Shown in pieces: positions 8,316 through 38,000 of a stretch of 60,726 nt of DNA (its first letter is position 1; each line of letters starts with the position of its first letter). The stretch is from a virus (taxonomy: Duplodnaviria; Caudoviricetes), in the IMG/VR virus record IMGVR_UViG_3300045131_000496, positions 1 to 60,726 of that record. One strand, written 5' to 3'. The notes under the pieces were generated by a model. It saw only the letters and a program-made list of their open reading frames with translations. It was not told the origin of the DNA and did no database searches. The position numbers and the translations under genes were made by a program.

Positions 8316-10139
8316 ATGATGAGACGTAATTTGCTGAGTGAGTCGGTAGCGAGTGTAAGCTCGTTACCTGCTAACACAGTCTTTAAATTGGGTACTGACG
8401 GTTTAGTTGGTGCTCAGAATAATATCTTTCTAGATACACCTACTAATAGCAGAACTGCTAATACTATTACTAGGTACGGTAATGTCACACAAGGTACATT
8501 CAGCCCTTATACGAAGGAAGCTGGGAAGTGGAGTAATTATTTTGATGGTGCGGGTGGTATTAGCGTCCCTTACAGCAGCGCCTTTGATTTTGGTACTGGT
8601 GAATTTAGTATAAAATGTGACGTGTTTGTTACATCTTACCCGACAAATAGGGGTGTTGTATTTGGTCGAGTTAATGATTGGACAGGATCTCAGTATTGGT
8701 TGGAGGTTACTTCATCTGGGAAAGTTGCACTAACTCGTTCTGGTGGTGCAATTATCACGTCCACACAAACTATCCCACTAAACTCTTGGTGTTCTGTAGA
8801 GGTTTATAGAATAGGTACAACTGCGTATATCGACATTAAGGGTCAAATTACAACTTTCACTAATACCACGTGGAACCTCACTGCCGGTGACCTAGGTGGG
8901 GAGTTTACGATAGGTGCTGATCAAGGCGTTAACTCGTTTTTCTTCAAAGGTTACATCTCCAACCTCAAAATCACCAAAGCAGGTACAGTAGTCCTCGACA
9001 CCTGCAAAGACAACCGCTTCAAAGACAACTCAATTTACAACCACACACTAACCCCGTCAGGTAATGTGAAAGTAAGTCCGTTTAGTCCTTATGCGAATAG
9101 TGCAGATTATGATGCTAGTGTGTATGGTGGTAGTGGGTATTTTGATGGGGATAATAAGTCGGATAGATTGTGGTCTAACGGCTTAAATCAGCAATCAACT
9201 GAGCCTTTAGATATTACGTTTAATACTTATTCAACAGGTACGTCTATATCTAATGGTGTTACTGCTTTGTTTGGTAGAAGGTATCAGGGTAACGGTGTTT
9301 GGGTGCGTATGACTGCCCCAACCTCACTAAGCTTTAACGCATCTGTGGTTAACGAGTTCATGACTTTACCTAGGTCTGTTATCAATGATAACCAGTGGCA
9401 TACTTGGCGTTTTTATCAGACAGCAGCAGGTGGTAAAATGTCTGTTGAGTTAGATGGTAGTTTGGTAGGTACAACAGTAGCAAATATTCCATTATTTGAT
9501 ATGGACAAGTTTGGTATTGGTGGTACAGATGATAACAACTATACCTTCAAAGGTTACATATCAAACTTTGTAGTAAAGAAAGCAGGATCAGAAGTCCTTA
9601 ATCTAAAATTCAACAATGCAGGTATTCGCGACGAATCAGGTATGAACTGTATTGAAACTGTTGGTGATGCAAAGGTTAGTAGTGATGGGCAAGGGGTTGT
9701 GTTTGATGGGGGTGGGGATTATTTAGCTATAGCCGATTCTACAAATCTAGCACTAGGAACTGGTGATTTTGAAGTTAGTTGTGACGTTTTTCTAAACTCG
9801 TATGCGAGTAATGCAGGGATAGTAATTCTTAATAGTGGATCAACTTCACAGTCGTTGTTCCAATTTAAATTTCATGGATCAACGTCATGGGGGTTGGCTG
9901 ACTATACTACTTGGCTTATCGAATCGACAACACTTCCAGCGTTAAATACGTGGCAGAAGTTAACTGTTTTTAGAATTGGCGGTCAGTTAGGTTTAAAGTT
10001 GAACAGTAATCAGATTGGCGCAACCGTAGCTAACACAAACAACTTTGCTAGTGGTACTAACGTAGTAGGCGCTTATGTTCCCACTAATAATTACATTAAC
10101 GGCACAATCAAAAATCTCACAATTACAAAAGGAGCATAA
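8316..10139 (+). CDS. Receptor-binding protein with three LamG/concanavalin A-like modules
   Basis: Repeats starting (Y/V)FDG, containing FGTGEF/LGTGDF, and ending FKGYISNL/FKGYISNF/INGTIKNL. Confidence 0.75.
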   Translation: MMRRNLLSESVASVSSLPANTVFKLGTDGLVGAQNNIFLDTPTNSRTANTITRYGNVTQGTFSPYTKEAGKWSNYFDGAGGISVPYSSAFDFGTGEFSIKCDVFVTSYPTNRGVVFGRVNDWTGSQYWLEVTSSGKVALTRSGGAIITSTQTIPLNSWCSVEVYRIGTTAYIDIKGQITTFTNTTWNLTAGDLGGEFTIGADQGVNSFFFKGYISNLKITKAGTVVLDTCKDNRFKDNSIYNHTLTPSGNVKVSPFSPYANSADYDASVYGGSGYFDGDNKSDRLWSNGLNQQSTEPLDITFNTYSTGTSISNGVTALFGRRYQGNGVWVRMTAPTSLSFNASVVNEFMTLPRSVINDNQWHTWRFYQTAAGGKMSVELDGSLVGTTVANIPLFDMDKFGIGGTDDNNYTFKGYISNFVVKKAGSEVLNLKFNNAGIRDESGMNCIETVGDAKVSSDGQGVVFDGGGDYLAIADSTNLALGTGDFEVSCDVFLNSYASNAGIVILNSGSTSQSLFQFKFHGSTSWGLADYTTWLIESTTLPALNTWQKLTVFRIGGQLGLKLNSNQIGATVANTNNFASGTNVVGAYVPTNNYINGTIKNLTITKGA

Positions 10140-10141
10140 TA

Positions 10142-10618
10142 ATGCTAGTAGCTAAAATGGTAAACAAGAAGTTGGTAGTTAAAGACCATACTGAGTTTTT
10201 CCCTAACACAATCTTTGGGTCTAACCCAACTATTGATTCAATGCCAGAACCTGTAATGCAGGTACAAGGTTGGATTGAACATGATCGCACTAAACAACGT
10301 CTAGAGCCTTGCGATGCTTACCAGAAAGATGGTACAGTACTTGTAGTAAAAGTAGTTGATCTAACAGCAGAAGAGATTACAGCTATGAATAAAGTACCTG
10401 TACCTCAGTCAGTATCACCTAGACAAGCTAGACTAGCTTTATTGGCTGCTGGTTTACTAGACGATATTGAAGCTGCTGTTAAGTCTAACCGTGAATGGCA
10501 GATCAGCTGGGAGTATGCTACCGAAGTTAGTCGTAACTCACCGCTAATTCAAGCAGTAGGTAAAGACATGACTGAAGAACAGCTAGATCAGTTATTTATT
10601 GACGCTAGTAAACTATGA
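10142..10618 (+). CDS. Tail fibre assembly/chaperone-like protein
   Basis: C-terminal VPQSVSPRQARLALLAAGLLDDIEA..WEYATEVSRNSPL..QLDQLFIDA domain is typical downstream of fibre genes. Confidence 0.65.
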   Translation: MLVAKMVNKKLVVKDHTEFFPNTIFGSNPTIDSMPEPVMQVQGWIEHDRTKQRLEPCDAYQKDGTVLVVKVVDLTAEEITAMNKVPVPQSVSPRQARLALLAAGLLDDIEAAVKSNREWQISWEYATEVSRNSPLIQAVGKDMTEEQLDQLFIDASKL

Positions 10619-10863
10619 AACAGTTTTTAATTGCTGTAGATCAGTTAATCAATACCATCATCTATATTAAGGGTGATGGTTGGGGTTACGCTGATGAAAC
10701 AATTAGTGCTAGAAGCTGGAGACTGAGAGATCAGTCTTCATTCTACAAATTTGTTAATGCTATATTCTTTTGGCAGAATAACCACTGCAGAGGAGCTTAT
10801 ATTTCTGAATTGTCTAGAAAGCAGCTACCTAAAGAGTACACTGAAAGTACTGTAGATAAGTAA
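10615..10863 (+). CDS. Conserved small phage protein (DQLxN...DETISARxWR...HC family)
   Basis: Recognisable motif family commonly found after tail fibre genes; ATGA overlap. Confidence 0.65.
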   Translation: MKQFLIAVDQLINTIIYIKGDGWGYADETISARSWRLRDQSSFYKFVNAIFFWQNNHCRGAYISELSRKQLPKEYTESTVDK

Positions 10864-10885
10864 CACAAACTTCACTTGTAATCCC

Positions 10886-10973
10886 CCTAGTTATATGTGA
10901 CAATGAATGTATAACTAGGTAACTAGTACTATAATTTACTATTCGGTAAATAGTCCGTCTGTACTACACAGAC
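10886..10973 (+). promoter_or_regulatory. Inverted repeats around a TATAAT box upstream of ORF 10999
   Basis: CCTAGTTATA...TATAACTAGG (10886-10919), TATAAT 10930-10935, ATTTACT/GGTAAAT (10934-10951), GTCTGT/ACAGAC (10957-10973). Confidence 0.5.
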
Positions 10974-10998
10974 AAATAATCTCGTAAAGGAGATTGAT

Positions 10999-11556
10999 AT
11001 GAGTGATGCAGTTGTTGGAACAGGTTCAGTTGTTGGTTTTACTGATGGCTACCGTAATGATCATTTATTAGCTACTACGATTGATCGTGCTGAACAGACA
11101 CGAGATATTATGCAGAGTGGACGATTTGAAGCAGAACAGTTACGTGATGCTATTGCAGCTTCCGAACTAGCTACAGAGAAGACAGGTGCTGCTAACCAAG
11201 TGACAATGGAAAAGATTGGTGCTGCTACTCAAATCGCTGCAGAGCGTTTAAGTACTAATAGCCAATTATCTGCTGAAAGGTTAGGTGCTGCTAGTACACT
11301 AGCTGCTTACCAAAACTTTGCAGCATTGCAATTACAAGCTTCACAAAACCATGCTAGTGCTATGGCAGCTGCAGCAGAGTGTTGTAGTTCAACTAAAGAG
11401 CTAATTCGTGAGGATGGTACTAAGACTCGTGACTTAATTAATGCTATTGAACGTGATAGACAGGCGGTACTATTAGCTGACGCTAAGAATGAACTGTTAC
11501 TAGCTAAGATTGCAGCTGCACAAGGTGCATTTATCAGCAGTAACAGTGTTTGCTAA
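10999..11556 (+). CDS. Hypothetical coiled-coil protein with AECC...KELI...TRDLI motif
   Basis: Strong AAGGAG RBS; Ala/Gln-rich helix, short EKxGAA repeats. Confidence 0.7.
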   Translation: MSDAVVGTGSVVGFTDGYRNDHLLATTIDRAEQTRDIMQSGRFEAEQLRDAIAASELATEKTGAANQVTMEKIGAATQIAAERLSTNSQLSAERLGAASTLAAYQNFAALQLQASQNHASAMAAAAECCSSTKELIREDGTKTRDLINAIERDRQAVLLADAKNELLLAKIAAAQGAFISSNSVC

Positions 11557-11602
11557 TACCTACTAGGTATAAAAATATCTTTTAAAATGTACTAACAGAT
11601 AG

Positions 11603-11641
11603 TACAATATACCCATTTAAATAATAGTTTAGGTGGGTATA
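11603..11641 (+). promoter_or_regulatory. TACAAT -10 box overlapping a hairpin that occludes the endolysin RBS
   Basis: TATACCCATTTAAAT-AATA-GTTTAGGTGGGTATA 15-bp stem (3 G-U) covering AGGTGG; TACAAT at 11603-11608. Confidence 0.65.
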
Positions 11642-11644
11642 CTT

Positions 11645-12142
11645 ATGAACTTAACTGCTAACATTACAGACAAAGAGATGGGTGTAGATGTACTACCTCA
11701 TACTGACTTACCTTACCAAATGGCTTTACTAGTTGCTGATAATCTACAAGCAATTAGAGACTACTATAAAAAACCTATCAGTATCCATGTTGGCTATCGT
11801 AACCCTGAGCACAATAAAGCTGTAGGCGGTGTAGCTACATCTCAACACTTATACGGCGAAGCTGCTGATTTCCATATTGACGGTATTTCCATGGAGCAGA
11901 TCGTTAATGATATTCGTAACAGTAAAATCAAGCTACCTCATAAGATTAGTCAAGTAATCCTTGAAGAATCTAAAGCACGACCAGGTTCATGGGGCTGGGT
12001 TCACCTAGGTGTATTTACTACTAGATGGGAAAACCAACGTAAAGAAAATGGTAAATCTCATGCAGGTAATGAGTTTTTAAAATGTATTAAAAATAGTTAT
12101 TATGCAATGACTAAAGACGCTACGGGGAAAGTACTTGTATGA
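11645..12142 (+). CDS. Endolysin, peptidase M15 family (start revised from GTG 11633 to ATG 11645)
   Basis: GYRNPEHNKAVGG..SQHLYGEAADF..WVHLG zinc-peptidase motifs; AGGTGG RBS 8 nt upstream of ATG 11645. Confidence 0.85.
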   Translation: MNLTANITDKEMGVDVLPHTDLPYQMALLVADNLQAIRDYYKKPISIHVGYRNPEHNKAVGGVATSQHLYGEAADFHIDGISMEQIVNDIRNSKIKLPHKISQVILEESKARPGSWGWVHLGVFTTRWENQRKENGKSHAGNEFLKCIKNSYYAMTKDATGKVLV

Positions 12143-12531
12143 ACCTCTCTTACTTTGTACTACAGTTGATGGGGCTTGTAGCTACCATCGCTGTACTGGG
12201 TAAGATGTACGTATGGGTTGATGATCCTAGTACTATGAGAAGAAATAAAGATAACTCCATTCATTGGCTACATAACATTTTAGAAGTAGCAATACTTGCA
12301 GGCGTAGGAGCTGCACTAGGTTATATTGTTTACATATCAGCATTAGCGTATGTAGGTGATATCAGTAAGTTGGACCAAGCAACCTTATCAGCAATATCAG
12401 CAGGAGTAGGTATGATGGCAGGTAAGGCTTGGAAAATGACTACAGAAACGGTAGAAATAGTTTTTGAATATGGTTCACAGAAGGTACGTGAAATGTTCAA
12501 AAAGAAAGTAGATCAGTATGACGATGACTAA
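12139..12531 (+). CDS. Putative holin (about 3 hydrophobic segments, charged C-tail)
   Basis: ATGA overlap with the endolysin; TM-like segments; KKKVDQYDDD tail. Confidence 0.55.
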   Translation: MNLSYFVLQLMGLVATIAVLGKMYVWVDDPSTMRRNKDNSIHWLHNILEVAILAGVGAALGYIVYISALAYVGDISKLDQATLSAISAGVGMMAGKAWKMTTETVEIVFEYGSQKVREMFKKKVDQYDDD

Positions 12532-13654
12532 TAGTCCACTAGATACATTATTAGAGGAGCTAGAGTCTAATAGTTCATCTAACGTAGAGTACTGTTTAAG
12601 ACCTACAGATACAATAACATCTACTACTTGTCCTAGTATGATAATAAAGTCTTATAACAGTACCTTTCTACGTGCTTCTGGTTACTCTCCTGAAGAGTTA
12701 CTAGGAAGACGACATAACGTATTACGACATCCAGATATGCCACAAGAAGTGTTTGATGACTTACGTAAAACTATTGCAGCAGGAAGACCTTGGCATGGGG
12801 TAGTTAAAAACAAACGTAAAGACGGTGGGTTTTACTGGGTAGACGCTACAATAACACCAGTAATAGAGAATGGAATGATAATGGGATACCAAAGCACTAG
12901 GTTCCCTGCCAGTGAGGCACAGAAGTCAAAGCATGAAAAGATGTATAAAGATATAAGAGAAGGCAACAGAAGACCACCTAACTCATTAGAAGACCTTACA
13001 CCTAGATCTAAGAGTAGGTTGGAGTTATATACCTCACTAGGTTTAATTACCCTGTTTGAGGGTATATCTCTTACACTAGGTTTACTAGGATACCTAGATG
13101 TATACATGATGATATTTACTGTACTACTAACTATGGTATTTATAAATAAGATTAGAAATCTAATACTAATAGACGATGACACAAGAGAACTTAAAGCTGT
13201 AAGAGAACTAGCTAGAGGTAACTTTAGAATACGAGTACCTAAACATACAGTATTTACAGAACCACTAGAGTTACTTCGTGCAATGATAGCTAGTAGTAAT
13301 TCTAGCGATATTGACTGTAAAACTAATGAAGCTGAACTTACTGCTCTTATGGATACCATAGATGGTATGGCTATATTTGTAGACATGGAATTTAAAGTAG
13401 TTAAATACAGCTTATCTGCGCTAAGACTTGAAAAAGTATTTAATTTACCGTTGAGTCAGATTAGCTTAGTGGACTACATTGAACAACCTATATATGTAGG
13501 GCTAACTAGAAAACATGATAAACAACTAACAAGCATACTTGTTAATGACTGCTTGTTAAGTGCTAGAATTACACCCATAGTTGTTAGGGGTGATACTAAA
13601 GGTTACTTATTTTTATTTTATTATTCAAAGGCAAACACAGATGAGTTTAGATGA
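12518..13654 (+). CDS. Aer-like sensor: PAS - F1 - TM hairpin - HAMP-like - degenerate PAS, no MCP or kinase domain
   Basis: SGYSPEELLGRRHNVLRHPDMP..PWHGVVKNKRKDGGFYWVDATITP..GYQSTR is an Aer-type PAS; hydrophobic hairpin; ELARGNFRIRVP HAMP-like; LMDTIDGMAIFVDMEFKV..RITPIVVRGDTKGYLFLF PAS-like. Confidence 0.85.
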   Translation: MTMTNSPLDTLLEELESNSSSNVEYCLRPTDTITSTTCPSMIIKSYNSTFLRASGYSPEELLGRRHNVLRHPDMPQEVFDDLRKTIAAGRPWHGVVKNKRKDGGFYWVDATITPVIENGMIMGYQSTRFPASEAQKSKHEKMYKDIREGNRRPPNSLEDLTPRSKSRLELYTSLGLITLFEGISLTLGLLGYLDVYMMIFTVLLTMVFINKIRNLILIDDDTRELKAVRELARGNFRIRVPKHTVFTEPLELLRAMIASSNSSDIDCKTNEAELTALMDTIDGMAIFVDMEFKVVKYSLSALRLEKVFNLPLSQISLVDYIEQPIYVGLTRKHDKQLTSILVNDCLLSARITPIVVRGDTKGYLFLFYYSKANTDEFR

Positions 13655-13745
13655 GTTAACAAACATTGCTATTGCTGTTGCAGCGTTACTGACTTTTATT
13701 AGTGCATGGGGACTACTAGATTACTTTACGGGTGGTAGTAAATGA
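13641..13745 (+). CDS. 34-aa single-TM membrane peptide (not in ORF track)
   Basis: MSLDELTNIAIAVAALLTFISAWGLLDYFTGGSK; overlaps the PAS gene end by 14 nt and the next start by ATGA, filling the gap exactly. Confidence 0.65.
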   Translation: MSLDELTNIAIAVAALLTFISAWGLLDYFTGGSK

Positions 13746-14251
13746 TTCTTAAAACATTACTTATTACTAAGAAAAATACAGACGAAGAGGGTAAAGTAAA
13801 AGCTAAAAAAGTATTAGAACAATTTCAACAAGCTGATAGCAGTAATGACTTATTTGCTATACAGTTCTATGAAAATGGCTCTAAGCTGCAATTAGCTTTT
13901 TCTGATAAGGCTGTAAAAAGTAATGGACTAACTCAGCAATACTTTGATATTGCTTCTGGTGATTTTATTACACAGGTAAGTACCTCACTAGATACTCTAG
14001 GTAAACAATACACTGATCTAGTTAATAAAGTAGCAAGTACGCAATTGGCTAGTGATACTAACACTAGTAACATAAATAAGCTAAACTTAGTGTATAATAC
14101 TGTTAAAGATGTAGTAGATAAACATGAAGTAAAACTGTCTTCACTAGATAGTAGAGTTACTACGCTAGAGAATGCTGTTAAGAACCTAGGTAGTACACCT
14201 AGTTCATCTAGCAGTGATGCAACTAATGTGACTACTGGTTTTACTTTTTGA
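13742..14251 (+). CDS. Hypothetical coiled-coil protein
   Basis: GGTGG RBS; heptad region LSSLDSRVTTLENAV. Confidence 0.6.
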   Translation: MILKTLLITKKNTDEEGKVKAKKVLEQFQQADSSNDLFAIQFYENGSKLQLAFSDKAVKSNGLTQQYFDIASGDFITQVSTSLDTLGKQYTDLVNKVASTQLASDTNTSNINKLNLVYNTVKDVVDKHEVKLSSLDSRVTTLENAVKNLGSTPSSSSSDATNVTTGFTF

Positions 14252-14264
14252 TTAGAGGTTTAGG

Positions 14265-14732
14265 ATGGCAGTATTAAAAAATGTAAAGTCACAGGTAATC
14301 GCTAAATGTTGGTATAGTAGCTTAAAGAATGCTGATAGCTTATCAGTATTACTTACACCAACTGCGAGTAATAGAGTAATTACAGGTATTAACCTAGGTA
14401 CATTAAACTTAAATATAACATCGTACAGTGTTAATGAATTACTGTCGTTAAGGTTTTATGTACTGCCTAAAACCCATACAGCATTTACAGCTAATAAAGG
14501 TTCAGCATTACTTAGTGAAGTACCTGTGCTTGATCACACCTTTAAATGTATTACAGGTAGTACTAGTGACCCTACATACAGCTCTATTAGAAACTCTCGT
14601 GATTCCTACACAGGACTACAGATACTGATACCTGCTGACCATGTACTAGCTGCTGTTGCCTTTACTGACAAATACGGTAATCCACAACTAGAGTCTCCTC
14701 CACAGTGGGCTAATGTTTCTTATTTAGAATGA
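14265..14732 (+). CDS. Hypothetical protein
   Basis: GAGG RBS; operon context. Confidence 0.6.
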   Translation: MAVLKNVKSQVIAKCWYSSLKNADSLSVLLTPTASNRVITGINLGTLNLNITSYSVNELLSLRFYVLPKTHTAFTANKGSALLSEVPVLDHTFKCITGSTSDPTYSSIRNSRDSYTGLQILIPADHVLAAVAFTDKYGNPQLESPPQWANVSYLE

Positions 14733-14757
14733 TTTAAATTTATACGAGGTAATAACT

Positions 14758-15507
14758 ATGTATCAACATAACGCAGCGTCAGCAACTTTAATTTTATCTA
14801 AACGACTTGATATGAAAGTACGTGCACAAATTGTTAAAGCTGTTAGCGATAAACAAACACAAGCACAACTAGGTATGTCACAATCGCAAGCTGATCAAGT
14901 ATCTGCACTTAATGCTAAGATGGATCAGATGATTGCAGATAGTAAGAAAATCAATGAGCAAGAGATGGCTTACATTGAAAACACGATGCTAGATGTACTT
15001 AAGAACTTGGAGGCTAAAGGGTTATTCAATCTAGTTGTATCTGTCAATGGTAAGAACTATTCATTGCGTGACATTGTAGAATCTATTGCTAATATGCCTA
15101 CAATTGTTAAAGAGAAATCGGAAGACGACTCTTCTGGTGAATGTGTTGGTATGCGTTATACTTTCAACGATGGAACTGAAGCCGTATTACCTTTGACTGT
15201 AACTGAAGATGATCAGTTTCTTACACAGACATTTGCTGGTAGTTTCAATGGTATTCAATCTAGTTTTAATGTTGTACATCGTAAACAGCCAATTGTTGTA
15301 GAAGGTCAGACTATTACAGATTATGTATTTGTTCAACAAACTAATATGACATTTGACCCTACAGCTAAACTAAAAGAAGCTAGTTCATTCACAGCTAAAG
15401 AAGTAGCTATTGATATGAATGGTGATGGTAATGTTGGCAACGTCTCTACTGAAGCTCCAACATCTGCACCTACAGTAGCTCCACTAGGTGATGGTGCTGT
15501 AATTTAA
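14758..15507 (+). CDS. Hypothetical protein
   Basis: GAGG RBS; N-terminal coiled coil, acidic beta-rich C-terminus with DMNGDGN motif. Confidence 0.65.
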   Translation: MYQHNAASATLILSKRLDMKVRAQIVKAVSDKQTQAQLGMSQSQADQVSALNAKMDQMIADSKKINEQEMAYIENTMLDVLKNLEAKGLFNLVVSVNGKNYSLRDIVESIANMPTIVKEKSEDDSSGECVGMRYTFNDGTEAVLPLTVTEDDQFLTQTFAGSFNGIQSSFNVVHRKQPIVVEGQTITDYVFVQQTNMTFDPTAKLKEASSFTAKEVAIDMNGDGNVGNVSTEAPTSAPTVAPLGDGAVI

Positions 15508-15515
15508 GGTAGTTA

Positions 15516-16046
15516 ATGATGAGTGATTATATTAAGTTTATTAAAGATATCGCTCCTACTGTGGCAGGGTTCTTAGGAACTCCTGCTATGGGTGTAGCAA
15601 CTAAAGCTTTACTAGATGCTTTTGATGGTGATGAAGAAACCGTAACTGCTATTACTAATGGTACTAAAGAGCTTAGTTCTGAGGATATTGCAAAGATTAA
15701 ACTAGCAGAGATTGACGCTAAAGCTAAAGCAGATGAACTAGGTTTAAAGTTCTATGAAGCTGAAGTAGAAGACCGTAAGTCTGCTAGAGAAATGCAAGTA
15801 GAAGCATTACACCAAGACGATAGATTTAGTAAAAGATTTATTTACTACTTTGCTACTCTATGGAGTATGTTTGCTATGCTTTATATTGCAGGTATTACTT
15901 TTATCAATATACCTGACGATAATACACGGGTAGTAGATACTGTACTAGGTTTCATTCTAGGTACTGTAATTGCTACTATTTTAGCGTTCTTTTATGGAAC
16001 TAGTGCTAGTTCTATGAAGAAGACAGAAATGATGAGTAATAAGTGA
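15516..16046 (+). CDS. Putative holin (3TM/GTA-holin-like family)
   Basis: EVEDRKSAREMQ..FSKRFIYYFA.., two C-terminal TM segments, FFYGTSASS ending. Confidence 0.6.
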   Translation: MMSDYIKFIKDIAPTVAGFLGTPAMGVATKALLDAFDGDEETVTAITNGTKELSSEDIAKIKLAEIDAKAKADELGLKFYEAEVEDRKSAREMQVEALHQDDRFSKRFIYYFATLWSMFAMLYIAGITFINIPDDNTRVVDTVLGFILGTVIATILAFFYGTSASSMKKTEMMSNK

Positions 16047-16054
16047 GATAGATA

Positions 16055-16444
16055 ATGAGTAATGATAATTTGTACAGCTACGCTAATGCAGCTGCAGACC
16101 CTTTAGGTGCTAACTTTAACTACTACGCACCTACACATAGAAGCGATAAGAAACCTGTGAATAGTGATGTTCTAAACTTTCAAAGGTACTGGAACAGTAA
16201 TTTACCGAAAGGTGTCACGCCATTGGCTGAAGATGGTATTAGAGGCCCTAAGACAGAGTTTGCTGAAAAGCAATGGGCTAATAATGCAAGAGCTCTAGAG
16301 TACGGCAGTTCTAAACCTACAACCATTGCACAGCCTATGGCAGTTCCTGCAGCTTCAGAAAGTTTAGCAGCACAAGCTCCACGAAAAGAAGTACCTGATT
16401 GGGCTAGAGGAACTATCCTAGAATTTACAGGGCAGTATAATTAA
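16055..16444 (+). CDS. Small protein with peptidoglycan-binding-like motif
   Basis: VLNFQRYWN..PLAEDGIRGPKT resembles PG_binding_1 (FQ...L..DGIxGPxT); contains ESLAAQ. Confidence 0.5.
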   Translation: MSNDNLYSYANAAADPLGANFNYYAPTHRSDKKPVNSDVLNFQRYWNSNLPKGVTPLAEDGIRGPKTEFAEKQWANNARALEYGSSKPTTIAQPMAVPAASESLAAQAPRKEVPDWARGTILEFTGQYN

Positions 16445-16466
16445 TATAGTAATTATTAAAATACTT

Positions 16467-16475
16467 TGGTATACT
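16467..16475 (+). promoter_or_regulatory. Extended -10 promoter TGGTATACT
   Basis: TGn-TATACT about 30 nt upstream of the portal start. Confidence 0.55.
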
Positions 16476-16504
16476 AATAGCACATATTATTAACGGATAA
16501 GGTT

Positions 16505-18616
16505 ATGGTAATTAATAAACAAGAAATTATAGCTAATCTTAAAGCTGATTTGAAAAAAGCAGAGATCTTGAAAAAGGACATCGATGCTAAAATCGACTCA
16601 TGGAGTAGACAAGCAAATGGATTGCCCTACGGAAATGAAGAAGCAGGTAAGAGTGCTATTGTATCTAAAGATATTAAAAAGCAGACTGAATGGCAAATCC
16701 CTTCTATTATTGACCCATTTGTATCAGCACCACAGATTGTAAGATGCCTACCTATTACTTATGAAGATACTCTTGCAGCTAGGCAGAATGAGCTAGTTTT
16801 AAACACTCAGTTCTGTAGACAGTTTGACAGATATAACTTCATGAATAAAGCAATTAGGGTTTTAGAAAATGAAGGTACTGTAGTAGTACAAACAGGTTGG
16901 GATTATGAAGATGAAGAAATTGAAGTAGATGGTCAAGGTATTGAAGTAGATGAATATGGTATGGAGCATATTGTTCCTACTAAAGTAAAAGAACTTATTG
17001 TTAAAAAGAATAAGCCTACTGCTCGTATTTGTCGTAATGTTGATATCTATATTGATCCTACATGTCAAGATAATCTAGATAATGCACAATTCGTTATTTA
17101 TAGGTATGAATCTGATTTATCATCACTAAAGAAAGATGGTAGATATACTAACCTAGATAAGATTCAAACAGGTGGTGGAGATAATGTACTATACAGAGGT
17201 GATTATATCTCACCTGATAGAACATACTTTAGCTTTGCTGATAAGGCTAGAAAGAAGCTTATGGTGTATGAATACTGGGGTAACTATGATGTGGATGGTG
17301 ACGGTATTGCAGAAGCCATTGTATGTGCTTGGGTTGGTGATACTATCATCAGACTAGAAGAGAACCCATACCCTGATAAGAAACCTCCATTCCTAGTTGT
17401 ACCATTTAATAGTATTCCGTTCCAGATGCATGGTGAGTCTAATGCTGAACTAATCGGTGATAACCAGAAGGTTAAGACGGCTATTATTCGTGGTATTATC
17501 GATAATATGGCTCAATCTAACAATGGTCAGATCGGTGTACGTAAAGGTGTACTAGATGTAGTAAACAAGAAGAAGTTCTTACAAGGACGAAGCTTTGAGT
17601 TTAACGGTACTCCTAACGATTTCTGGCAAGGTAGTTATAACAATATTCCTGCTTCAGCATTTAATATGCTAGAGCTAATGAATAATGAGATTGAGAGTTT
17701 AACTGGTGTTAAATCCTTTAGCGGTGGTATCAATGGTAATTCACTAGGTTCATCAGCTACAGGCGCAAGGGGAGCCTTAGACGCTACCTCAGTTAGACGT
17801 ATGAACATTATTCGTAACATTAGCGAGAACCTAGTTAAACCGTTACTGCGTAAATGGATGTCATATAATGCAGCATTCCTACAACCAGAAGAAGTTATCC
17901 GTATTACAAATGAAGAGTTTGTACCTATTAAACGTGATGACTTACTAGGTAATGTAGACATTGATATTACTGTAGCTTCATTAGAAGATAACTCTGCTAA
18001 ATCACAAGAGTTAAGTTTCCTATTACAGACCCTAGGTAACAGTGTACCATTTGAGATTACACAACACCTAATGGGTGATATGCTAGAGCTTATGCGTATG
18101 CCTGAACAAGCTAAACGTATTAGAGAGTTCCAACCTCCTAAAGATGATATGCAAGAACAGATGAAGCAACTAGAGCTACAACGTATGCAGTTAGAACTAG
18201 CTAAACTACAATCTGAAATTGAACGTAATAAAGCTAAATCTGCAGAAGATCAAGTAGACGTAATCTTGAAGCAAAACAAAGCAGAACTAGAAGCAGCTAA
18301 GGCTAGGTTAACTAATAGTACAGCTGACCTTAAAGACATGGACTTCCTTCGTGCAGATGAAGGTATTGACCATCAGCAGAAGATGGCAGAGTTTAATGCT
18401 AAACAACAGGCTACACTAGACAGTAAAGCACTAGATGCTTACCACAGAAGTTTAGATAATGATAGAAAACATCAGTCTGATCTAGATAAATTAATGGTAC
18501 AGCTTGCACATCAGAACAAGCATAAAGAAGTAGACCACTTATCTAAACTAGATATGGCAGCCTTTGAAGCTATGCAACGTGACAAAGATAGGAAGCATAA
18601 AAATGGGTCTAATTGA
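16505..18616 (+). CDS. Portal protein (N4 gp59-like)
   Basis: IKKQTEW, ARQNELVLNTQF, YEYWGNYDVDGDG, IRLEENPYPDKKPPF, EIESLTGVKSFSGG and KSQELSFLLQTLG motifs of N4-type portals. Confidence 0.93.
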   Translation: MVINKQEIIANLKADLKKAEILKKDIDAKIDSWSRQANGLPYGNEEAGKSAIVSKDIKKQTEWQIPSIIDPFVSAPQIVRCLPITYEDTLAARQNELVLNTQFCRQFDRYNFMNKAIRVLENEGTVVVQTGWDYEDEEIEVDGQGIEVDEYGMEHIVPTKVKELIVKKNKPTARICRNVDIYIDPTCQDNLDNAQFVIYRYESDLSSLKKDGRYTNLDKIQTGGGDNVLYRGDYISPDRTYFSFADKARKKLMVYEYWGNYDVDGDGIAEAIVCAWVGDTIIRLEENPYPDKKPPFLVVPFNSIPFQMHGESNAELIGDNQKVKTAIIRGIIDNMAQSNNGQIGVRKGVLDVVNKKKFLQGRSFEFNGTPNDFWQGSYNNIPASAFNMLELMNNEIESLTGVKSFSGGINGNSLGSSATGARGALDATSVRRMNIIRNISENLVKPLLRKWMSYNAAFLQPEEVIRITNEEFVPIKRDDLLGNVDIDITVASLEDNSAKSQELSFLLQTLGNSVPFEITQHLMGDMLELMRMPEQAKRIREFQPPKDDMQEQMKQLELQRMQLELAKLQSEIERNKAKSAEDQVDVILKQNKAELEAAKARLTNSTADLKDMDFLRADEGIDHQQKMAEFNAKQQATLDSKALDAYHRSLDNDRKHQSDLDKLMVQLAHQNKHKEVDHLSKLDMAAFEAMQRDKDRKHKNGSN

Positions 18617-20900: not shown

Positions 20901-22154
20901 ATGTCTACTCTAAATTTAGGTCCTGCTAATAACTTCTACGGTGACGGTATTAACTCGTCAGCTGGTGAAAATACGGTACGTCATTATTATGATCGTGTAG
21001 GTATTCGTGCAGCTACTGCAAAAAACGTATATGGTCAGTTTGCTTCTCGTAAAGAGATGCCTAAGAACTCAGGTAAAGAATTTAAAATTTCTAAATTCTT
21101 GAATGGCTATGACCGTAAATTGTCTGATGCTGATTTTGCTAAGTACGGCTATATGACTGGTCGTAGTTTAGCTGACTACCAAGCTACTCTAGCTTCTGCA
21201 GTTGCTTTGACTGAAGGTGCTGGTGCAGTTAATAAGCGTAAACTAGAGAAAATCACTGTATCTACTAAACTAGCTCGCTATGGCGAGATGTTAGAATATA
21301 CTGATGAAGTTGATATGTTCTCAGAAGACGTTATGCAAACTCGTTACCATGAGTTCATGGGTAACTTAGCTAACGAACGTAATGAATCATTGATTCAAAT
21401 GGACATGTTGGCTACTCCTACAGTAATGTTTACTGGTGGTGCTACTGCTCGTACACAAATCGGTCAAGATGCTGGTGCTACTGGTACATTCGATTCTAAG
21501 TACAAAGTAAGCTGGGATTTGATTCGTCAAGCTACTCGTCGTCTTGTAGCTAACCGTGCTAAGAAAAACACTGAAATCGTAACTGGTACAGTTAAGATTG
21601 ATACCCGTACTATTGCTCCTGCATACTACGCTATCATCGGTGCTGATGTTAAAGCTGACTTAGAAAACGTAGTACGTGGTACTGTAGCAGCTAACGGTAA
21701 AACGGATAACGTATGGATTCCTTCACATCAATATGCTTCTGGTACTACCTTAGCAGAAGGTGAAGTAGGTTTAATTCATGAAGTACGTTTCATCGAAGCT
21801 GAGTCTGCATTCGCTTACCGTGGTAACGGTGCTGCTGTTCCAGCTGGTTATACTGGTACATTGTCTTACACTACTTTTGCTAACAATGCTGACGCTGTTG
21901 TTGCTCGTGGTGCAGGTGCTACGGCTGGTTCATACTTTGACGTATTCCCAATCCTATTCCCTACTCAAGACGCATTTGCTACTGTAGGTTTGAAAGGTGT
22001 TGGTAAGATCACGTTCAACTCTAAGCCACCTAGTGATGTAAGTATCATTAACCCTTATGGTACACAAGGCTTCTTCAGCTACAACTTCTTCTATGCTGGC
22101 ATCATTTTGGAGCCAGAGCGTTTGTTGAAACTAGAAGTAGGTGCTAGTCGATAA
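20901..22154 (+). CDS. Major capsid protein (N4 gp56-like)
   Basis: MPKNSGKEFK, LTEGAGAVNK, IDTRTI, YASGTTLAEGEVG, DVFPILF, NPYGTQGFFS motifs; strong codon bias. Confidence 0.93.
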   Translation: MSTLNLGPANNFYGDGINSSAGENTVRHYYDRVGIRAATAKNVYGQFASRKEMPKNSGKEFKISKFLNGYDRKLSDADFAKYGYMTGRSLADYQATLASAVALTEGAGAVNKRKLEKITVSTKLARYGEMLEYTDEVDMFSEDVMQTRYHEFMGNLANERNESLIQMDMLATPTVMFTGGATARTQIGQDAGATGTFDSKYKVSWDLIRQATRRLVANRAKKNTEIVTGTVKIDTRTIAPAYYAIIGADVKADLENVVRGTVAANGKTDNVWIPSHQYASGTTLAEGEVGLIHEVRFIEAESAFAYRGNGAAVPAGYTGTLSYTTFANNADAVVARGAGATAGSYFDVFPILFPTQDAFATVGLKGVGKITFNSKPPSDVSIINPYGTQGFFSYNFFYAGIILEPERLLKLEVGASR

Positions 22155-35080: not shown

Positions 35081-38000
35081 ATGTTATCCAACTACTACAA
35101 TAATCCATATATCGCATCAGCTACCTTAAATGAACCTGCTCAAGGTGTCGAGGATACAGATGAAACAAGTTTAGCTGCTGCTAAAGAAGATAAGCTCCGT
35201 AAGCTAGCTGAGAAGAAGGCTACACTTACAGCCGATAAACCTTTCACCTATGAACAGGCTGATTACGCAGACTTGACTAAGGGCACGTACACAGTAATGC
35301 CTGACGGTAGAAAAGAAGATAACTCTAATAAGATCTACAATGAGTTGTCACCTACCGAGTTGCAAGCAGTAAAGGGACTAGGTATAGCTAAGTATGCGCT
35401 AGAGCCTGATAAAGCTACCGGCAAGGTGTATATGACTGACTTAGAAGGAAATAAGCAGGAGTATAACGGCCCTACTGAAAGACTCTACATGGGTAAGGGT
35501 AAAGGGCCGAATGGAGAGGATATATTCAAGCTGGGCATTAGCGCCCCAGGACCTACCCCTGAAGCTATGATTGGCACTAAGTGGGAGGGTATGGACCCTT
35601 CTATAGTTCGCTATGATTCAGAAGCGGCTAAGTACTTTAAACTAGGGAGTGAGCGTAAGCCTTATGGTTGGGCATCTGGTCCTGAAGGGATAGATACATC
35701 TACTATGCAGAGTGTACTGCTACCCTACAACGTAGCTAAGGTAATGGAGGCAACGGATCACGGTAACAAAAGTGCTATGGCTAACCGAGCAGTTCCAGGA
35801 CTTAGTTCTGAAGGTAAAGAACGCTTCGGTCAAGGGTACGGTGAGTACTACAAGAACGGAGTTAAAGGTATGTTTGGTGATGTTAACCAAAACCTATCTG
35901 CCGAAGAGTACGATAAGGTTATGGGTACAGCTGATAAATTCCTGGCAGAGCGGATAGCACAGCAACAAGCTTTAGATCCACGTAACGGTATTGTAGATAA
36001 AGCAGCGTGGGAAAAGCACGTAGCTAATAAGCAAGCTGAGTACAAGTACAACACAAACAGTCTAGCAGATAACTGGGGCAATGCATTTAAAGGGGCAGCA
36101 GCATCCGCAGGTACAGGTGTACTGAAATTAGTTGATGCCTTACAAGAAGCCGCTACATTACCTTACCAAGCTGCTACAAATGCTATTGGACGATCATTAG
36201 ACCCTAAGTATAAAGATAGGGATATAGACCTAATAAAAGATGAATGGGTAAAAGCAGGAGAAGGTAACTTAGATAAGTTATTTGGGCATGATAGAGCACT
36301 TACTGATTACGCTTCACAGAGGGCTAAAGAGGAGATGGAGAAGGCTAAAATAGACCTCACTAGTCTTGACAACTTAACTGATCTAGCTACTAACAAAGAA
36401 AGGCTTTCTCATGTAGGCGATGTAGCAGGTATAGCTGCTTATAATCCTGCAGTAGTTACTAACTCTATAGCAGAAGTGCTAGGCGAAGGAGGTGGATTAA
36501 AAGCTATTGGTAGCGTTGCACTAAAGACTATGGCCGCAGTCGCCCCTAACCTAGCTAAGTCCGTAGAAGGCGTACTAACTACTAATAGATCGGATGTCAT
36601 AGCTAAGGCAAAAGAGATTAAAAGTAGAGAAGATCTTACAGATGATGCTAAAAGAGCTGCTATAAAAGAGGTAGAAAAGGAGTACACAAAAGGTAAACTA
36701 GCTGTTGACTTACTTAAAGGTAGTGCTTTCAGTAACGCTGACGCTATGGTACGTATCGATAATGATATCGATAAGTACAAAGAGAATAACGAAGGAGAGT
36801 CCCCTACTGCCGGTAAGCTACTTCAAATTGCAGTTACGGATAAAATTCTTGCCGAGATGAACGTACTATCCGCTAAAAGTGCTGTAGGACTTGATACACC
36901 AGTCAGTTCGTTATCTAGTAGTGCTATAACTGGAGCTATTAAACAAGCAGGTGCTGCTGTACTGCATGTAACAGGCAGTATCGGTAAAGAAGCTATTCAA
37001 GAAACGATTGATAGCATAGGGGAGCAAGTAAACCAAAAGTATAACAGTAAGGAGTTCAAAGACGCTACTGTAGGTGACATTATCAGAGAGAGCAGCACTG
37101 AGATCGCACTAGGTACAGTACTAGGCGGTGTAGGTGGCGGTTACATGGGCACTGTAGGGGCCATAAAGAATAATGTAATAGGCCCTTTGGTTGGCCAGGC
37201 AGCGCCTACGGTAAGTGCTGCTTCCTCTGCCGAGAAATCAGTAAAAACAGACATTTCGCAAGCAAAAGAGCAAGTAGGGGAAGAAGTTACTCCAGCTGTG
37301 CAGTACTTTAGAACTTTAGCAGAAGTAGACAAAGATTTTAAATCGGGAGTTATTACTAAGGACAATGTAGTTGACTATATTGATAAACTAGAATCAATGC
37401 AAGAGTTACGTTATGGTTTAAAGGATGTTCCAGAAGGTTTAGTTGCATACCAAGACGCTAGGTACTTAAACTTAGCTAATCATATTAATTCGTTTATGAC
37501 AGATGAAAATGCTACTGATGAGCAGTTAAAACTACAACGAAAATTACCCACAACGCTTCCCGACCCAAGTACAGCGTCTGCCCCTACGGATGCGACATTA
37601 GGTTCAGAAGAAACTACAGTAGTAGGTGCAACTGCAAGTAGTATATATTCAGATGCAGATAGAAAAGCTGATGCAGAGAGGCTACTTCATTTTGCTATAG
37701 ATTCGCTAGAGTTTACACCAGATCAGGCAGACATTATTGGCAGTCGCTACAGTAGATTTGCTAAAGCAAATGGGGTAGAACTAGAAAGATTAAATACGAT
37801 TATCAAGAGTTATGCAGCAGTAGAGGAAGAAGCATCTATAGGTAGACGTAGCTGGTTATCGTACGAGAACAAATTAGACGCTCTGATGAGTGCTACTGTG
37901 CCTAATACTAAAGCTATCGAAAGACAGTATAGACAGCTGAATAACTGGTTAGCTACTACAAATAATGCAAAGTTAGATTTAGAAGAAGGTATCGCTGCAG

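What the first reader, a model, noticed from the sequence alone, without database searches (positions are those of the whole stretch)
12518..13654. Aer-like redox/energy sensor without an output domain embedded in the lysis cassette
Seen: the order is endolysin, putative holin, PAS protein, 34-aa TM peptide, all with overlapping start/stop codons. The protein follows the Aer layout: PAS with RHPDMP and KNxRKDG.YWV, F1 helix, TM hairpin, HAMP-like segment. It then ends in a degenerate second PAS rather than an MCP signalling domain. Known: Aer PAS binds FAD and senses respiratory-chain redox, and holin triggering depends on membrane energisation. Inference: it may be a captured and repurposed receptor that links lysis timing to host oxygen/energy state via the holin, or a dominant-negative decoy of host energy taxis. 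The conserved Trp of Aer's FxDMW appears as FDDLR here, so flavin binding may be altered.
Basis: partly seen in the sequence, partly recalled or inferred. Interest (0 to 1): 0.85.

Follow-up and report, generated by a model that had tools for sequence, protein, structure and literature searches.

The report
Phage-borne sensor half of an aerotaxis receptor
A lake-water N4-like phage carries, right after its cell-wall-cutting and membrane-hole genes, the sensing half of a bacterial oxygen/energy receptor without the part that talks to the swimming machinery, so it may let the phage read the host's energy state, but what it does with that reading is untested.

Summary
ORF 12518-13654 (378 aa) is an Aer-type flavin PAS domain, F1 linker, membrane hairpin, HAMP and a second PAS fold, with no MCP signalling domain.

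It follows an M15 endolysin and a 3-TM holin-like gene, with overlapping stop and start codons.

One refinement: the second PAS does not replace the MCP module. The whole protein is collinear with the N-terminal ~360 residues of two-PAS Aer-like chemoreceptors of Thiomicrospira-like Gammaproteobacteria. It stops at the domain border before HAMP_2 and MCPsignal.

It is not a decaying fragment:
- Six distinct members of 372-402 aa keep the same layout down to about 29% identity.
- All 6 listed population SNPs in the gene are synonymous.
- Its GC content matches the phage.

Endolysin or holin-like homologues sit on contigs of the same length as two relatives' contigs.

Four of six mapped Aer FAD contacts are identical. 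The adenine-stacking Trp is Arg in 4 of 6 members.

Function is inferred only. I favour a late-expressed membrane redox sensor that modulates lysis (about 0.4). A receptor decoy and other roles remain open.

The parts
11633..12142 (+). Endolysin, M15 peptidase family. No hydrophobic N-terminus. Probable true start is ATG 11645 behind AGGTGG.
   Evidence: Pfam Peptidase_M15_3 E 1e-17. phrog_894 endolysin E 9.2e-27. No hydropathy peak. Junction sequence.
12139..12531 (+). 130-aa membrane protein, holin-like. Hydropathy peaks at residues 1-25 and 46-72, a weaker third hydrophobic stretch and a charged C-terminal tail. No known family.
   Evidence: No hit in Pfam, PHROGs, NCBIfam or PADLOC. Two homologues only (97% and 81% identity).
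12518..13654 (+). The finding: 378-aa PAS1-F1-TM hairpin-HAMP-PAS2 protein without an MCP signalling module.
12587..12910 (+). PAS1 (residues ~24-131), Aer/PAS_FAD1 type, with RHPDMP and KNxRKDG.YWV.
   Evidence: PAS_3 E 1.7e-16. 8dik Aer PAS E 5.4e-29. FAD-contact mapping.
12911..13012 (+). F1-like linker (residues ~132-165).
   Evidence: AF2 helix 133-147. Alignment to Aer continues to residue 150.
13013..13156 (+). Membrane hairpin (residues ~166-213), basic residues on both flanks.
   Evidence: Hydropathy. AF2 helices 164-189 and 195-213.
13157..13318 (+). HAMP (residues ~214-267), with the family motif ELARGNFR.
   Evidence: hhalign against the bacterial HAMP: E 7.5e-10, prob 96.5%, 44 columns; reversed control 0.59. 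NCBIfam NblS TM-HAMP-PAS stretch 194-332, E 7.9e-6. ESM Atlas look-alikes are HAMP/PAS clusters (lead only).
13319..13633 (+). PAS2 (residues ~268-372), no Pfam hit, no conserved His or Cys inside the fold.
   Evidence: AF2 pLDDT 70-88 with PAS topology. Foldseek: 34 matches at E <= 1e-3, listed rows nearly all PAS sensors. VIA Z 9.9 to Aer2 PAS 4hi4 and 9.8 to NifL. hhalign against bacterial PAS2: E 1.2e-5, prob 81%. Conserved columns.
13641..13745 (+). 34-aa single-TM peptide ORF. Its start overlaps the PAS gene's end. Reality unproven.
   Evidence: No family. Listed SNPs: 3 conservative non-synonymous, 2 synonymous.
13742..14251 (+). 169-aa ORF with weak coiled-coil-type hits, ATGA overlap with the peptide ORF. 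Function unknown.
   Evidence: only weak hits.

Best explanation
Shown:
- The gene encodes the sensor half of a two-PAS Aer-type energy-taxis chemoreceptor: flavin-type PAS, F1, membrane hairpin, HAMP and second PAS.
- A lineage of N4-like freshwater phages captured it, cut off at the domain border before HAMP_2 and the MCP kinase-control module.
- It is kept intact under purifying selection.

Inferred:
- It sits in the inner membrane with all domains in the cytoplasm, probably as a dimer like Aer.
- PAS1 still reads the redox state of the respiratory chain through a flavin. Binding of the adenine end is altered in the window's subclade by Trp to Arg.
- The signal passes PAS1 to HAMP to PAS2.
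- Because it cannot reach CheA, PAS2 and/or the hairpin act by protein contact.
- The gene is translationally coupled to the holin-like gene in the late endolysin cluster. So the most likely target is the lysis machinery. It would act as an antiholin-like or lysis-inhibition-like modulator that advances or delays hole formation according to the host's energy state.

My odds: identity and maintenance about 0.85; the lysis-modulator mechanism about 0.4.
For: Identity:
- PAS_3 E 1.7e-16; Aer PAS 8dik E 5.4e-29.
- Whole-length profile match to two-PAS Aer-like MCPs, E 3.9e-41 over columns 20-363.
- C-terminal part alone against nine bacterial relatives: HAMP+PAS2 E 2.3e-12, HAMP E 7.5e-10, PAS2 E 1.2e-5; reversed controls 0.43-0.59.
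- PAS fold of the C-terminus.
- The bacterial relatives run on to HAMP_2 and MCPsignal. The phage protein has no MCPsignal.
- In a quick tree of 121 PAS1 domains the six family members lie on one side of a branch (SH-aLRT 84). A Thiomicrospira protein is their neighbour (95).

Maintenance:
- Six distinct members of 372-402 aa have the same layout.
- 6 of 6 listed SNPs in the gene are synonymous. These are 40 of 136 differences listed.
- GC 0.353 against 0.375 for the window.

Flavin pocket: Aer H53, R57, N85 and R115 are identical and M69 is Leu, by the alignment and the contacts in PMC9668731.

Lysis context:
- Overlapping stop and start codons with the holin-like gene and the 34-aa ORF.
- Position just upstream of the portal, where N4 keeps gp60-gp63 (bioRxiv 10.1101/2025.11.12.688109, sections read).
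- Holin-like homologue P0122 (81%) on a contig of 4584 bases, the length of P0003's contig.
- Endolysin homologue P0128 (62%) on a Logan contig of 5501 bases, the length of P0005's contig.
- One contig of an RNA library spans 11000-13500. This is not proof of transcription.
Against: - No result ties the protein to the holin or to lysis timing. The link is position only.
- The holin-like protein belongs to no known family and no spanin was recognised. So 'lysis cassette' rests on one endolysin and TM proteins.
- The linkage in relatives is inferred from equal contig lengths, not from seen DNA.
- For P0002's contig (3931 bases) no neighbour was found, and no holin-like homologue was found for P0005's contig.
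- Related N4-like phages share none of the 13 window ORFs between 8316 and 16444 (0 of 13 loci). The region is a variable zone where unrelated cargo could lodge.
- The PAS protein diverges faster (56%) than the neighbouring holin-like protein (81%) in the same relative. This fits tracking of a host partner as well as tracking of a phage one.
- Trp to Arg at the adenine-stacking site may weaken FAD binding. The aerotaxis review PMC13401364 (passage) says conserved Trp residues shared with Aer hold FAD in AerC.
Confidence: 0.4

Rival explanations
1. Decoy or dominant-negative subunit of the host's own two-PAS Aer-like receptor. The truncated protein pairs with the host receptor through the hairpin, HAMP or PAS2, or competes for its redox input. 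This blinds or locks energy taxis in the infected cell.
For: It is homologous along its whole length to the dimer-forming sensor half of such receptors. It lacks the output module. It evolves faster than its neighbour (56% against 81%), as expected when tracking a host partner. Split energy-taxis receptors in which a separate PAS protein acts on an MCP exist (CetA/CetB; review PMC13401364, passage).
Against: It lies among late structural and lysis genes, not early host-takeover genes. Identity to the nearest bacterial receptors is low (PAS1 about 45-53%, HAMP/PAS2 seen only by profiles), which makes mixed dimers doubtful. The host is unknown, so its motility and receptor set are unknown. The benefit of altering taxis late in a lytic cycle is unclear.
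Confidence: 0.2
2. A membrane redox or energy sensor with a phage function unrelated to lysis. Examples are superinfection exclusion or control of another late process through an unknown partner bound by PAS2. On this reading its place beside the endolysin is incidental.
For: The region upstream of the portal is hypervariable among relatives (0 of 13 loci share its ORFs). Downstream ORFs have no known function. The architecture is conserved and selected.
Against: Overlapping reading frames with the holin-like gene. Recurrence next to endolysin or holin-like homologues in two relatives. No match to defence families (PADLOC).
Confidence: 0.25
3. A structural membrane protein that no longer senses. 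The Trp to Arg change abolished flavin binding, and the protein works constitutively, for example as a holin partner through its hairpin.
For: W70 of Aer stacks on the FAD adenine (PMC9668731) and is Arg in 4 of 6 members.
Against: The isoalloxazine-pocket residues H53, N85 and R115 and the phosphate contact R57 stay identical or invariant across the family. All listed SNPs in PAS1 are synonymous. Two members keep Trp.
Confidence: 0.1
4. A decaying remnant of a captured chemoreceptor gene with no function.
For: It lacks the output domain. A truncated Aer-like ORF also rides as transposon cargo in P1-like phage SJ46.
Against: Six intact members of like length down to about 29% identity in the C-terminal part. 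The truncation falls exactly at a domain border. 6 of 6 listed SNPs are synonymous. Base composition matches the phage.
Confidence: 0.03

Closest known systems
E. coli Aer (PAS_FAD1 energy-taxis receptor; PDB 8dik PAS domain)
   Same: N-terminal flavin-type PAS (E 5.4e-29, about 44% identity), F1, membrane hairpin and HAMP in the same order. FAD contacts H53, R57, N85 and R115 are kept.
   Different: No MCP kinase-control module. An extra PAS after the HAMP. Adenine-stacking W70 is Arg. Phage-encoded.
Two-PAS Aer-like chemoreceptors of Thiomicrospira and related Gammaproteobacteria (loci L095-L101, L024, L017; unnamed family)
   Same: Collinear PAS1-F1-TM-HAMP-PAS2. HAMP+PAS2 hhalign E 2.3e-12. 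Nearest neighbours in the PAS1 tree.
   Different: The bacterial proteins (593-995 aa in the loci read) continue into HAMP_2, MCPsignal and sometimes further domains. The phage protein ends about 6 residues after PAS2.
P0008, a 228-aa 'PAS domain-containing protein' of Thiomicrospira sp. R3
   Same: Output-less Aer-like PAS, hairpin and start of HAMP. Neighbour of the phage family in the tree (SH-aLRT 95).
   Different: Bacterial chromosome. It ends inside the HAMP and has no PAS2. It is probably a broken copy of the full-length receptor seen in sister species.
Antiholins and lysis-inhibition sensors (T4 RI, N4 gp63 LIN domain)
   Same: Small membrane-anchored regulators encoded in or near the lysis cassette that set lysis time in response to a signal (recalled for T4; N4 from bioRxiv 10.1101/2025.11.12.688109).
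   Different: No sequence relation. No binding or timing effect is shown here. The input would be cytoplasmic redox, not superinfection.
Phage VP882 VqmA (PAS plus HTH quorum receptor)
   Same: A phage-encoded PAS sensor that informs a lysis decision (recalled). Its structure 7dwm is among the PAS2 fold matches, Z 9.0.
   Different: Soluble transcription factor of a temperate phage. Here the protein is a membrane protein without a DNA-binding domain in an N4-like phage.
Aer-like ORF on Tn1721-type cargo in P1-like phages (SJ46, P1 MH445380)
   Same: The only Aer-type PAS hits among 50,697 phage records: 6 records, 42-44% identity over residues 29-154.
   Different: Transposon cargo beside transposase and resistance genes, not near lysis genes. 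No shared C-terminal part.

Membership tests
Aer / PAS_FAD1 methyl-accepting energy-taxis receptors | N-terminal Aer-type PAS domain | tested here: met
   PAS_3 E 1.7e-16. 8dik E 5.4e-29.
Aer / PAS_FAD1 methyl-accepting energy-taxis receptors | FAD-contact residues (H53, R57, M69, W70, N85, R115 of Aer, from PMC9668731) | tested here: inconclusive
   H66, R70, N98 and R128 are identical; M69 is L82; W70 is R83. W is kept in 2 of 6 members. T27 was not mapped. Cofactor binding itself cannot be tested here.
Aer / PAS_FAD1 methyl-accepting energy-taxis receptors | Membrane hairpin followed by HAMP | tested here: met
   Hydropathy and AF2 helices. HAMP hhalign E 7.5e-10. Pfam HAMP itself gave no hit at E <= 0.1.
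Aer / PAS_FAD1 methyl-accepting energy-taxis receptors | MCP signalling (kinase-control) domain PF00015 | tested here: not met
   No MCPsignal hit at E <= 0.1 in the window protein, P0002 or P0005. The protein ends at residue 378, just after PAS2.
Two-PAS Aer-like chemoreceptors (Thiomicrospira type) | Collinear PAS1-TM-HAMP-PAS2 | tested here: met
   hhalign whole length E 3.9e-41. C-terminal part alone E 2.3e-12 with nine relatives. With only two more distant relatives it was not significant (E 0.008, prob 5%).
Two-PAS Aer-like chemoreceptors (Thiomicrospira type) | HAMP_2 plus MCPsignal after PAS2 | tested here: not met
   Present in L024, L017 and L100. Absent from all six phage-family members by length and Pfam.
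Holin regulators (antiholin / LIN proteins) | Encoded within the lysis gene cluster | tested here: met
   Directly after the M15 endolysin and a holin-like TM gene, with overlapping codons. Recurs by contig-length match in two relatives.
Holin regulators (antiholin / LIN proteins) | Binds the holin and shifts the time of lysis | not testable with these tools
   Needs genetics or biochemistry.
Bipartite energy-taxis sensors (CetB type) | Stand-alone soluble PAS protein acting on a separate MCP | tested here: not met
   The phage protein has its own hairpin, HAMP and a second PAS. The CetA/CetB description comes from a passage of PMC13401364.

The most novel reading that the evidence does not exclude
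A virulent phage carries its own flavin-based redox sensor. It is the sensor half of an aerotaxis receptor, rewired so that its C-terminal PAS domain or its membrane hairpin acts on the holin system. Lysis or lysis inhibition would then be timed by the respiratory state of the infected cell. This would be an antiholin-like regulator with a cytoplasmic energy input, a kind not described so far.
Probability: 0.25. Interest if true: 0.85.

Novelty: new variant of a known kind. Interest (0 to 1): 0.62.

Why it matters
Holin triggering is known to depend on membrane energisation. No phage-encoded protein that reads the host's respiratory redox state has been tied to lysis.

Two full-text searches gave nothing relevant:
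- 'lysis cassette' with 'PAS domain': 2 papers, neither relevant by title.
- N4-like/Schitoviridae with PAS or aerotaxis terms: none of the 15 papers listed held either phage term.

If this family modulates lysis, it gives a testable link between host physiology and burst timing in an abundant lake phage. The stretch was found in runs of 16 studies.

If it is instead a receptor decoy, it would be a case of a lytic phage manipulating host energy taxis.

Either way it is a natural experiment. It shows that the PAS-F1-hairpin-HAMP-PAS module of Aer-like receptors can persist and be selected without a kinase-control domain.

Tried and rejected
- Synteny through relatives. Twelve IMG/VR loci found with the portal, plus Alteromonas phage AD45-P1, share none of the window's ORFs from 8316 to 16444 at tblastn E <= 1e-3. 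They could not show whether the slot is conserved.
- Searches for the family in IMG/VR found nothing: whole protein, two alignments, P0125 and P0126. The one metagenome scan was taken over by the common HN[IV]LRHPD pattern. It returned only bacterial Aer-like genes, not the contigs of P0002-P0005.
- A scan of 185,579 species genomes with two C-terminal patterns found no relative. This covers close relatives only.
- megablast of 11000-15000 against phage records: no match. tblastn of the holin-like protein against phage records: no match.
- The first whole-protein AF2 model was poor (mean pLDDT 54.5). I used it only for helices.
- The first hhalign of the C-terminal part against two distant bacterial receptors was not significant (E 0.008 and 0.089, prob 5% and under 1%). 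One search overturned this with nine closer sequences.
- Complex prediction of the PAS family alignment with the holin-like alignment: no verdict (score 0.00, mark 0.32, controls not run). This is no evidence either way.
- Lipobox scan of + strand ORFs in 10000-16600 with a strict pattern of my own: nothing, so no o-spanin candidate. A miss proves little.
- Promoter and terminator scan: fewer promoter-like sites than in shuffles, so uninformative.
- PADLOC: no defence family for the PAS protein or its neighbours, except a 0.0076 ZorA-like trace in ORF 14758.
- tRNA scan: none, so no host clue. The host remains unknown. The Thiomicrospira-like neighbours of the tree are a lead only.
- The careful tree search did not finish. 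The quick IQ-TREE tree was used.
- Supplementary tables of the N4 lysis preprint (its Table S3 and Figs S6-S7) were not seen. They may list N4-like lysis cassettes with extra genes.
Full report
**What the window is.** The window is a whole IMG/VR virus record of 60,726 bases, estimated 72% complete. It is an N4-like podophage:
- Virion RNA polymerase pieces at 35081-49371 (phrog_2206).
- Portal at 16505-18616 (phrog_1216, E 1.5e-190). It is 62% identical to Alteromonas phage AD45-P1.
- Major head protein at 20901-22154.
- rIIA and rIIB homologues and ribonucleotide reductase on the minus strand.

Near-identical DNA of 11000-15000 occurs in lake and freshwater runs of 16 studies, five of them RNA libraries. 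megablast against 50,697 phage records finds nothing. The host is unknown and there are no tRNA genes.

**The observation.** ORF 12518-13654 (378 aa) is real, and the gene order and overlaps are as described.
- Upstream lies an M15 peptidase endolysin (Pfam E 1e-17; phrog_894 E 9e-27). Its listed GTG start at 11633 is probably replaced by ATG 11645 behind AGGTGG.
- Next comes a 130-aa membrane protein (12139-12531) with hydropathy peaks and a charged tail. It belongs to no family.
- The PAS ORF overlaps this gene by 14 nt.
- A 34-aa single-TM ORF (13641-13745) overlaps the PAS ORF's end by 14 nt. It is followed, with an ATGA overlap, by a 169-aa ORF of unknown function.

**Domain layout.**
- PAS1: residues 46-127 hit PAS_3 (E 1.7e-16). 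Residues 30-145 align to the crystal-structure sequence of the E. coli Aer PAS domain (8dik, E 5.4e-29).
- Hairpin: a helical hairpin at about 164-213 is supported by hydropathy and by the otherwise poor whole-protein model.
- C-terminal 164 residues: these have no Pfam hit. Modelled with a six-row alignment, residues ~269-371 reach pLDDT 70-88 with the strand-strand-helices-three-strands order of a PAS fold.
- Foldseek gives 34 PDB matches at E <= 1e-3, and the listed ones are nearly all PAS sensor domains.
- An independent all-against-48,161-chains alignment puts Aer2 PAS (Z 9.9), NifL PAS (9.8) and other PAS/LOV domains in almost all of the 50 rows shown.
- ESM Atlas look-alikes of residues 215-378 are HAMP/PAS clusters (score 0.94-0.95, lead only). 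NCBIfam gives a weak match of residues 194-332 to the TM-HAMP-PAS part of NblS (E 7.9e-6).
- There is no MCPsignal domain.

**Where it came from.** The metagenome scan and a genome scan with the short Thiomicrospira protein P0008 brought in bacterial receptors of 593-995 aa. Their order is Aer-type PAS, hairpin, HAMP, PAS_8, HAMP_2, MCPsignal.
- A profile of the phage family aligns to two of them over columns 20-363 (E 3.9e-41). PAS1 dominates that score.
- With those two alone, the C-terminal part was not significant.
- With nine sequences, including the closer Thiomicrospira and 'Francisella'-MAG clade, the C-terminal part alone gives E 2.3e-12 (HAMP+PAS2, 142 columns), 7.5e-10 (HAMP) and 1.2e-5 (PAS2). 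Reversed controls give 0.43-0.59.

So the phage protein is the N-terminal sensor half of a two-PAS Aer-like chemoreceptor. It ends a few residues after PAS2, where the bacterial proteins go on to HAMP_2 and the kinase-control module.

In a quick maximum-likelihood tree of 121 PAS1 domains the six family members form one group (SH-aLRT 84). P0008 of Thiomicrospira sp. R3 is their neighbour (95). For that tree I left out P0001 (a near-identical fragment) and P0004 (a partial sequence, identical to P0003 wherever both are present). The careful search did not finish.

**The family and selection.**
- The word-indexed search of 5.8 billion proteins listed four further sequences with 52-57% identity and 89-98% coverage (P0002-P0005). 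It also found a 99% identical fragment.
- An exhaustive phmmer of the C-terminal 164 residues against 1.84 billion representatives gave five hits at E <= 1e-3: a fragment of the same phage, P0005, two distant full-architecture members (P0125 of 393 aa and P0126 of 402 aa) and one spurious repeat protein.
- That makes six distinct members, all 372-402 aa, with conserved motifs through HAMP and PAS2.
- None was found in 50,697 phage records or, by the pattern scans, in IMG/VR. None was found in 185,579 species genomes by the C-terminal patterns.
- Contigs of four runs laid on 11000-15000 differ at 136 places, of which 40 were listed. The 6 inside the PAS gene are all synonymous. For comparison, the endolysin has 3 non-synonymous of 14 and the 34-aa ORF has 3 of 5.
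- GC (0.353; GC3 0.243) matches the phage (0.375).

A decaying fragment is therefore very unlikely.

**The flavin pocket.** The Aer PAS structure paper (PMC9668731, passages seen) names N85, H53, T27, M69, R115, R57 and W70 as FAD contacts.
- By the alignment, H53, R57, N85 and R115 are identical here (H66, R70, N98, R128).
- H66, N98 and R128 are invariant in all six members. R70 is Lys in P0125.
- M69 is Leu.
- W70, which stacks on the adenine, is Arg83 in the window, P0002, P0003 and P0005, but Trp in P0125 and P0126.
- A review passage states that conserved Trp residues shared with Aer hold FAD in AerC (PMC13401364).

The ring pocket thus looks intact, while the grip on the adenine end is changed in one subclade. 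Binding itself is untested.

**Lysis linkage.**
- In N4 the lysis genes gp60-gp63 were cloned as one late cassette and shown to suffice for lysis. N4 also shows lysis inhibition involving a pinholin 'LIN' region (bioRxiv 10.1101/2025.11.12.688109; abstract and sections 5, 7 and 10 read). That this cassette lies next to the N4 portal gp59 I recall; it comes from no call.
- Here the endolysin cluster also lies a few kb upstream of the portal, though with other genes and order.
- The holin-like protein has only two homologues. One (81% identical) comes from a contig of 4584 bases, the length recorded for P0003's contig.
- An endolysin homologue (62%) comes from a Logan contig of 5501 bases, as does P0005.
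- This is indirect evidence, because the tool that fetches such contigs was closed. It suggests linkage in two of the three relatives with contigs of 3.9 kb or more. Nothing was found for the third.
- The six records with an Aer-type PAS among the phage records are not comparable. Where I looked (SJ46) the hit is transposon cargo away from lysis genes.

**Mechanism.**
- Shown: the layout, the origin, the loss of the CheA-controlling module, the maintenance, and the position.
- Inferred: a cytoplasm-facing, membrane-anchored, probably dimeric sensor whose PAS1 reads respiratory redox through a flavin and passes the signal through HAMP to PAS2.
- PAS2 has no conserved His or Cys. It is more likely a transmitter or contact surface than a second cofactor site.
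- With no kinase-control domain the output must be a protein contact.
- The overlapping reading frames with the holin-like gene and the small TM ORF make the lysis machinery the most economical target. I put this at about 0.4.

Rivals:
- A decoy of the host's own two-PAS receptor (0.2).
- A sensor for another phage function (0.25).
- A constitutive membrane partner that no longer senses (0.1).
- A dead remnant (0.03).

The complex prediction with the holin-like protein gave no verdict and counts for nothing.

**Novelty and verdict.** The parts are known kinds: Aer-type PAS, HAMP and PAS. What I could not find in print is their combination as a stand-alone, selected, phage-specific family beside lysis genes (searches; listings and abstracts only). 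I rate it a new variant of a known kind, interest 0.62.

Noticed in passing
window 13641-14251: The 34-aa single-TM ORF and the following 169-aa ORF (weak coiled-coil-type hits) overlap by ATGA. Joined, they would resemble an i-spanin (N-terminal TM plus periplasmic coiled coil). No lipobox ORF (o-spanin) was found in 10000-16600 with my strict pattern.
   Followed up: partly
window 35081-49371: The N4-type virion RNA polymerase is spread over separate ORFs. ORFs of 2741 aa and 1378 aa both match phrog_2206, with a 644-aa ORF between them.
   Followed up: no
window 55803-59482 (-): rIIA-like (870 aa) and rIIB-like (354 aa) genes, annotated in PHROGs as lysis inhibitors. They are relevant if the phage shows lysis inhibition.
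   Followed up: no
window 15516-16046: 176-aa protein with two C-terminal TM segments (phrog_1544). Homologues occur in 160 phage records, 147 of them Vibrio phages. It is another holin-type candidate close to the portal.
   Followed up: partly
window 11688-11692: In contigs of three runs a 1-base insertion behind 11688 and a 1-base deletion at 11692 compensate each other inside the endolysin gene. This recodes one to two codons in a variant strain.
   Followed up: no
window 12803-12840: Contigs of other, more abundant organisms in three of the four runs laid (X2, X6, X8) match only this 38-base stretch (the KNxRKDG.YWV region) with 3 differences and then diverge (tables 7 and 8). They are probably bacterial Aer-like genes in the same water.
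   Followed up: no
P0008 (Thiomicrospira sp. R3); loci L095-L098: A 228-aa Aer-like ORF that ends inside the HAMP. Sister species carry full-length two-PAS receptors of 731-756 aa; a fourth locus ends after 593 aa. It is probably a truncated bacterial copy and the nearest neighbour of the phage family in the tree.
   Followed up: partly
L084 2298-3554 and 5047-6978: One IMG/VR contig shows two portal-like matches about 1.5 kb apart, 62% and 58% identity. This may be a duplication or an assembly chimera.
   Followed up: no
window 51125-53794 (-): Besides RNR families, the ribonucleotide reductase large subunit (888 aa) gives a PhoH-like PHROG hit over residues 147-476. Its meaning was not examined.
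   Followed up: no
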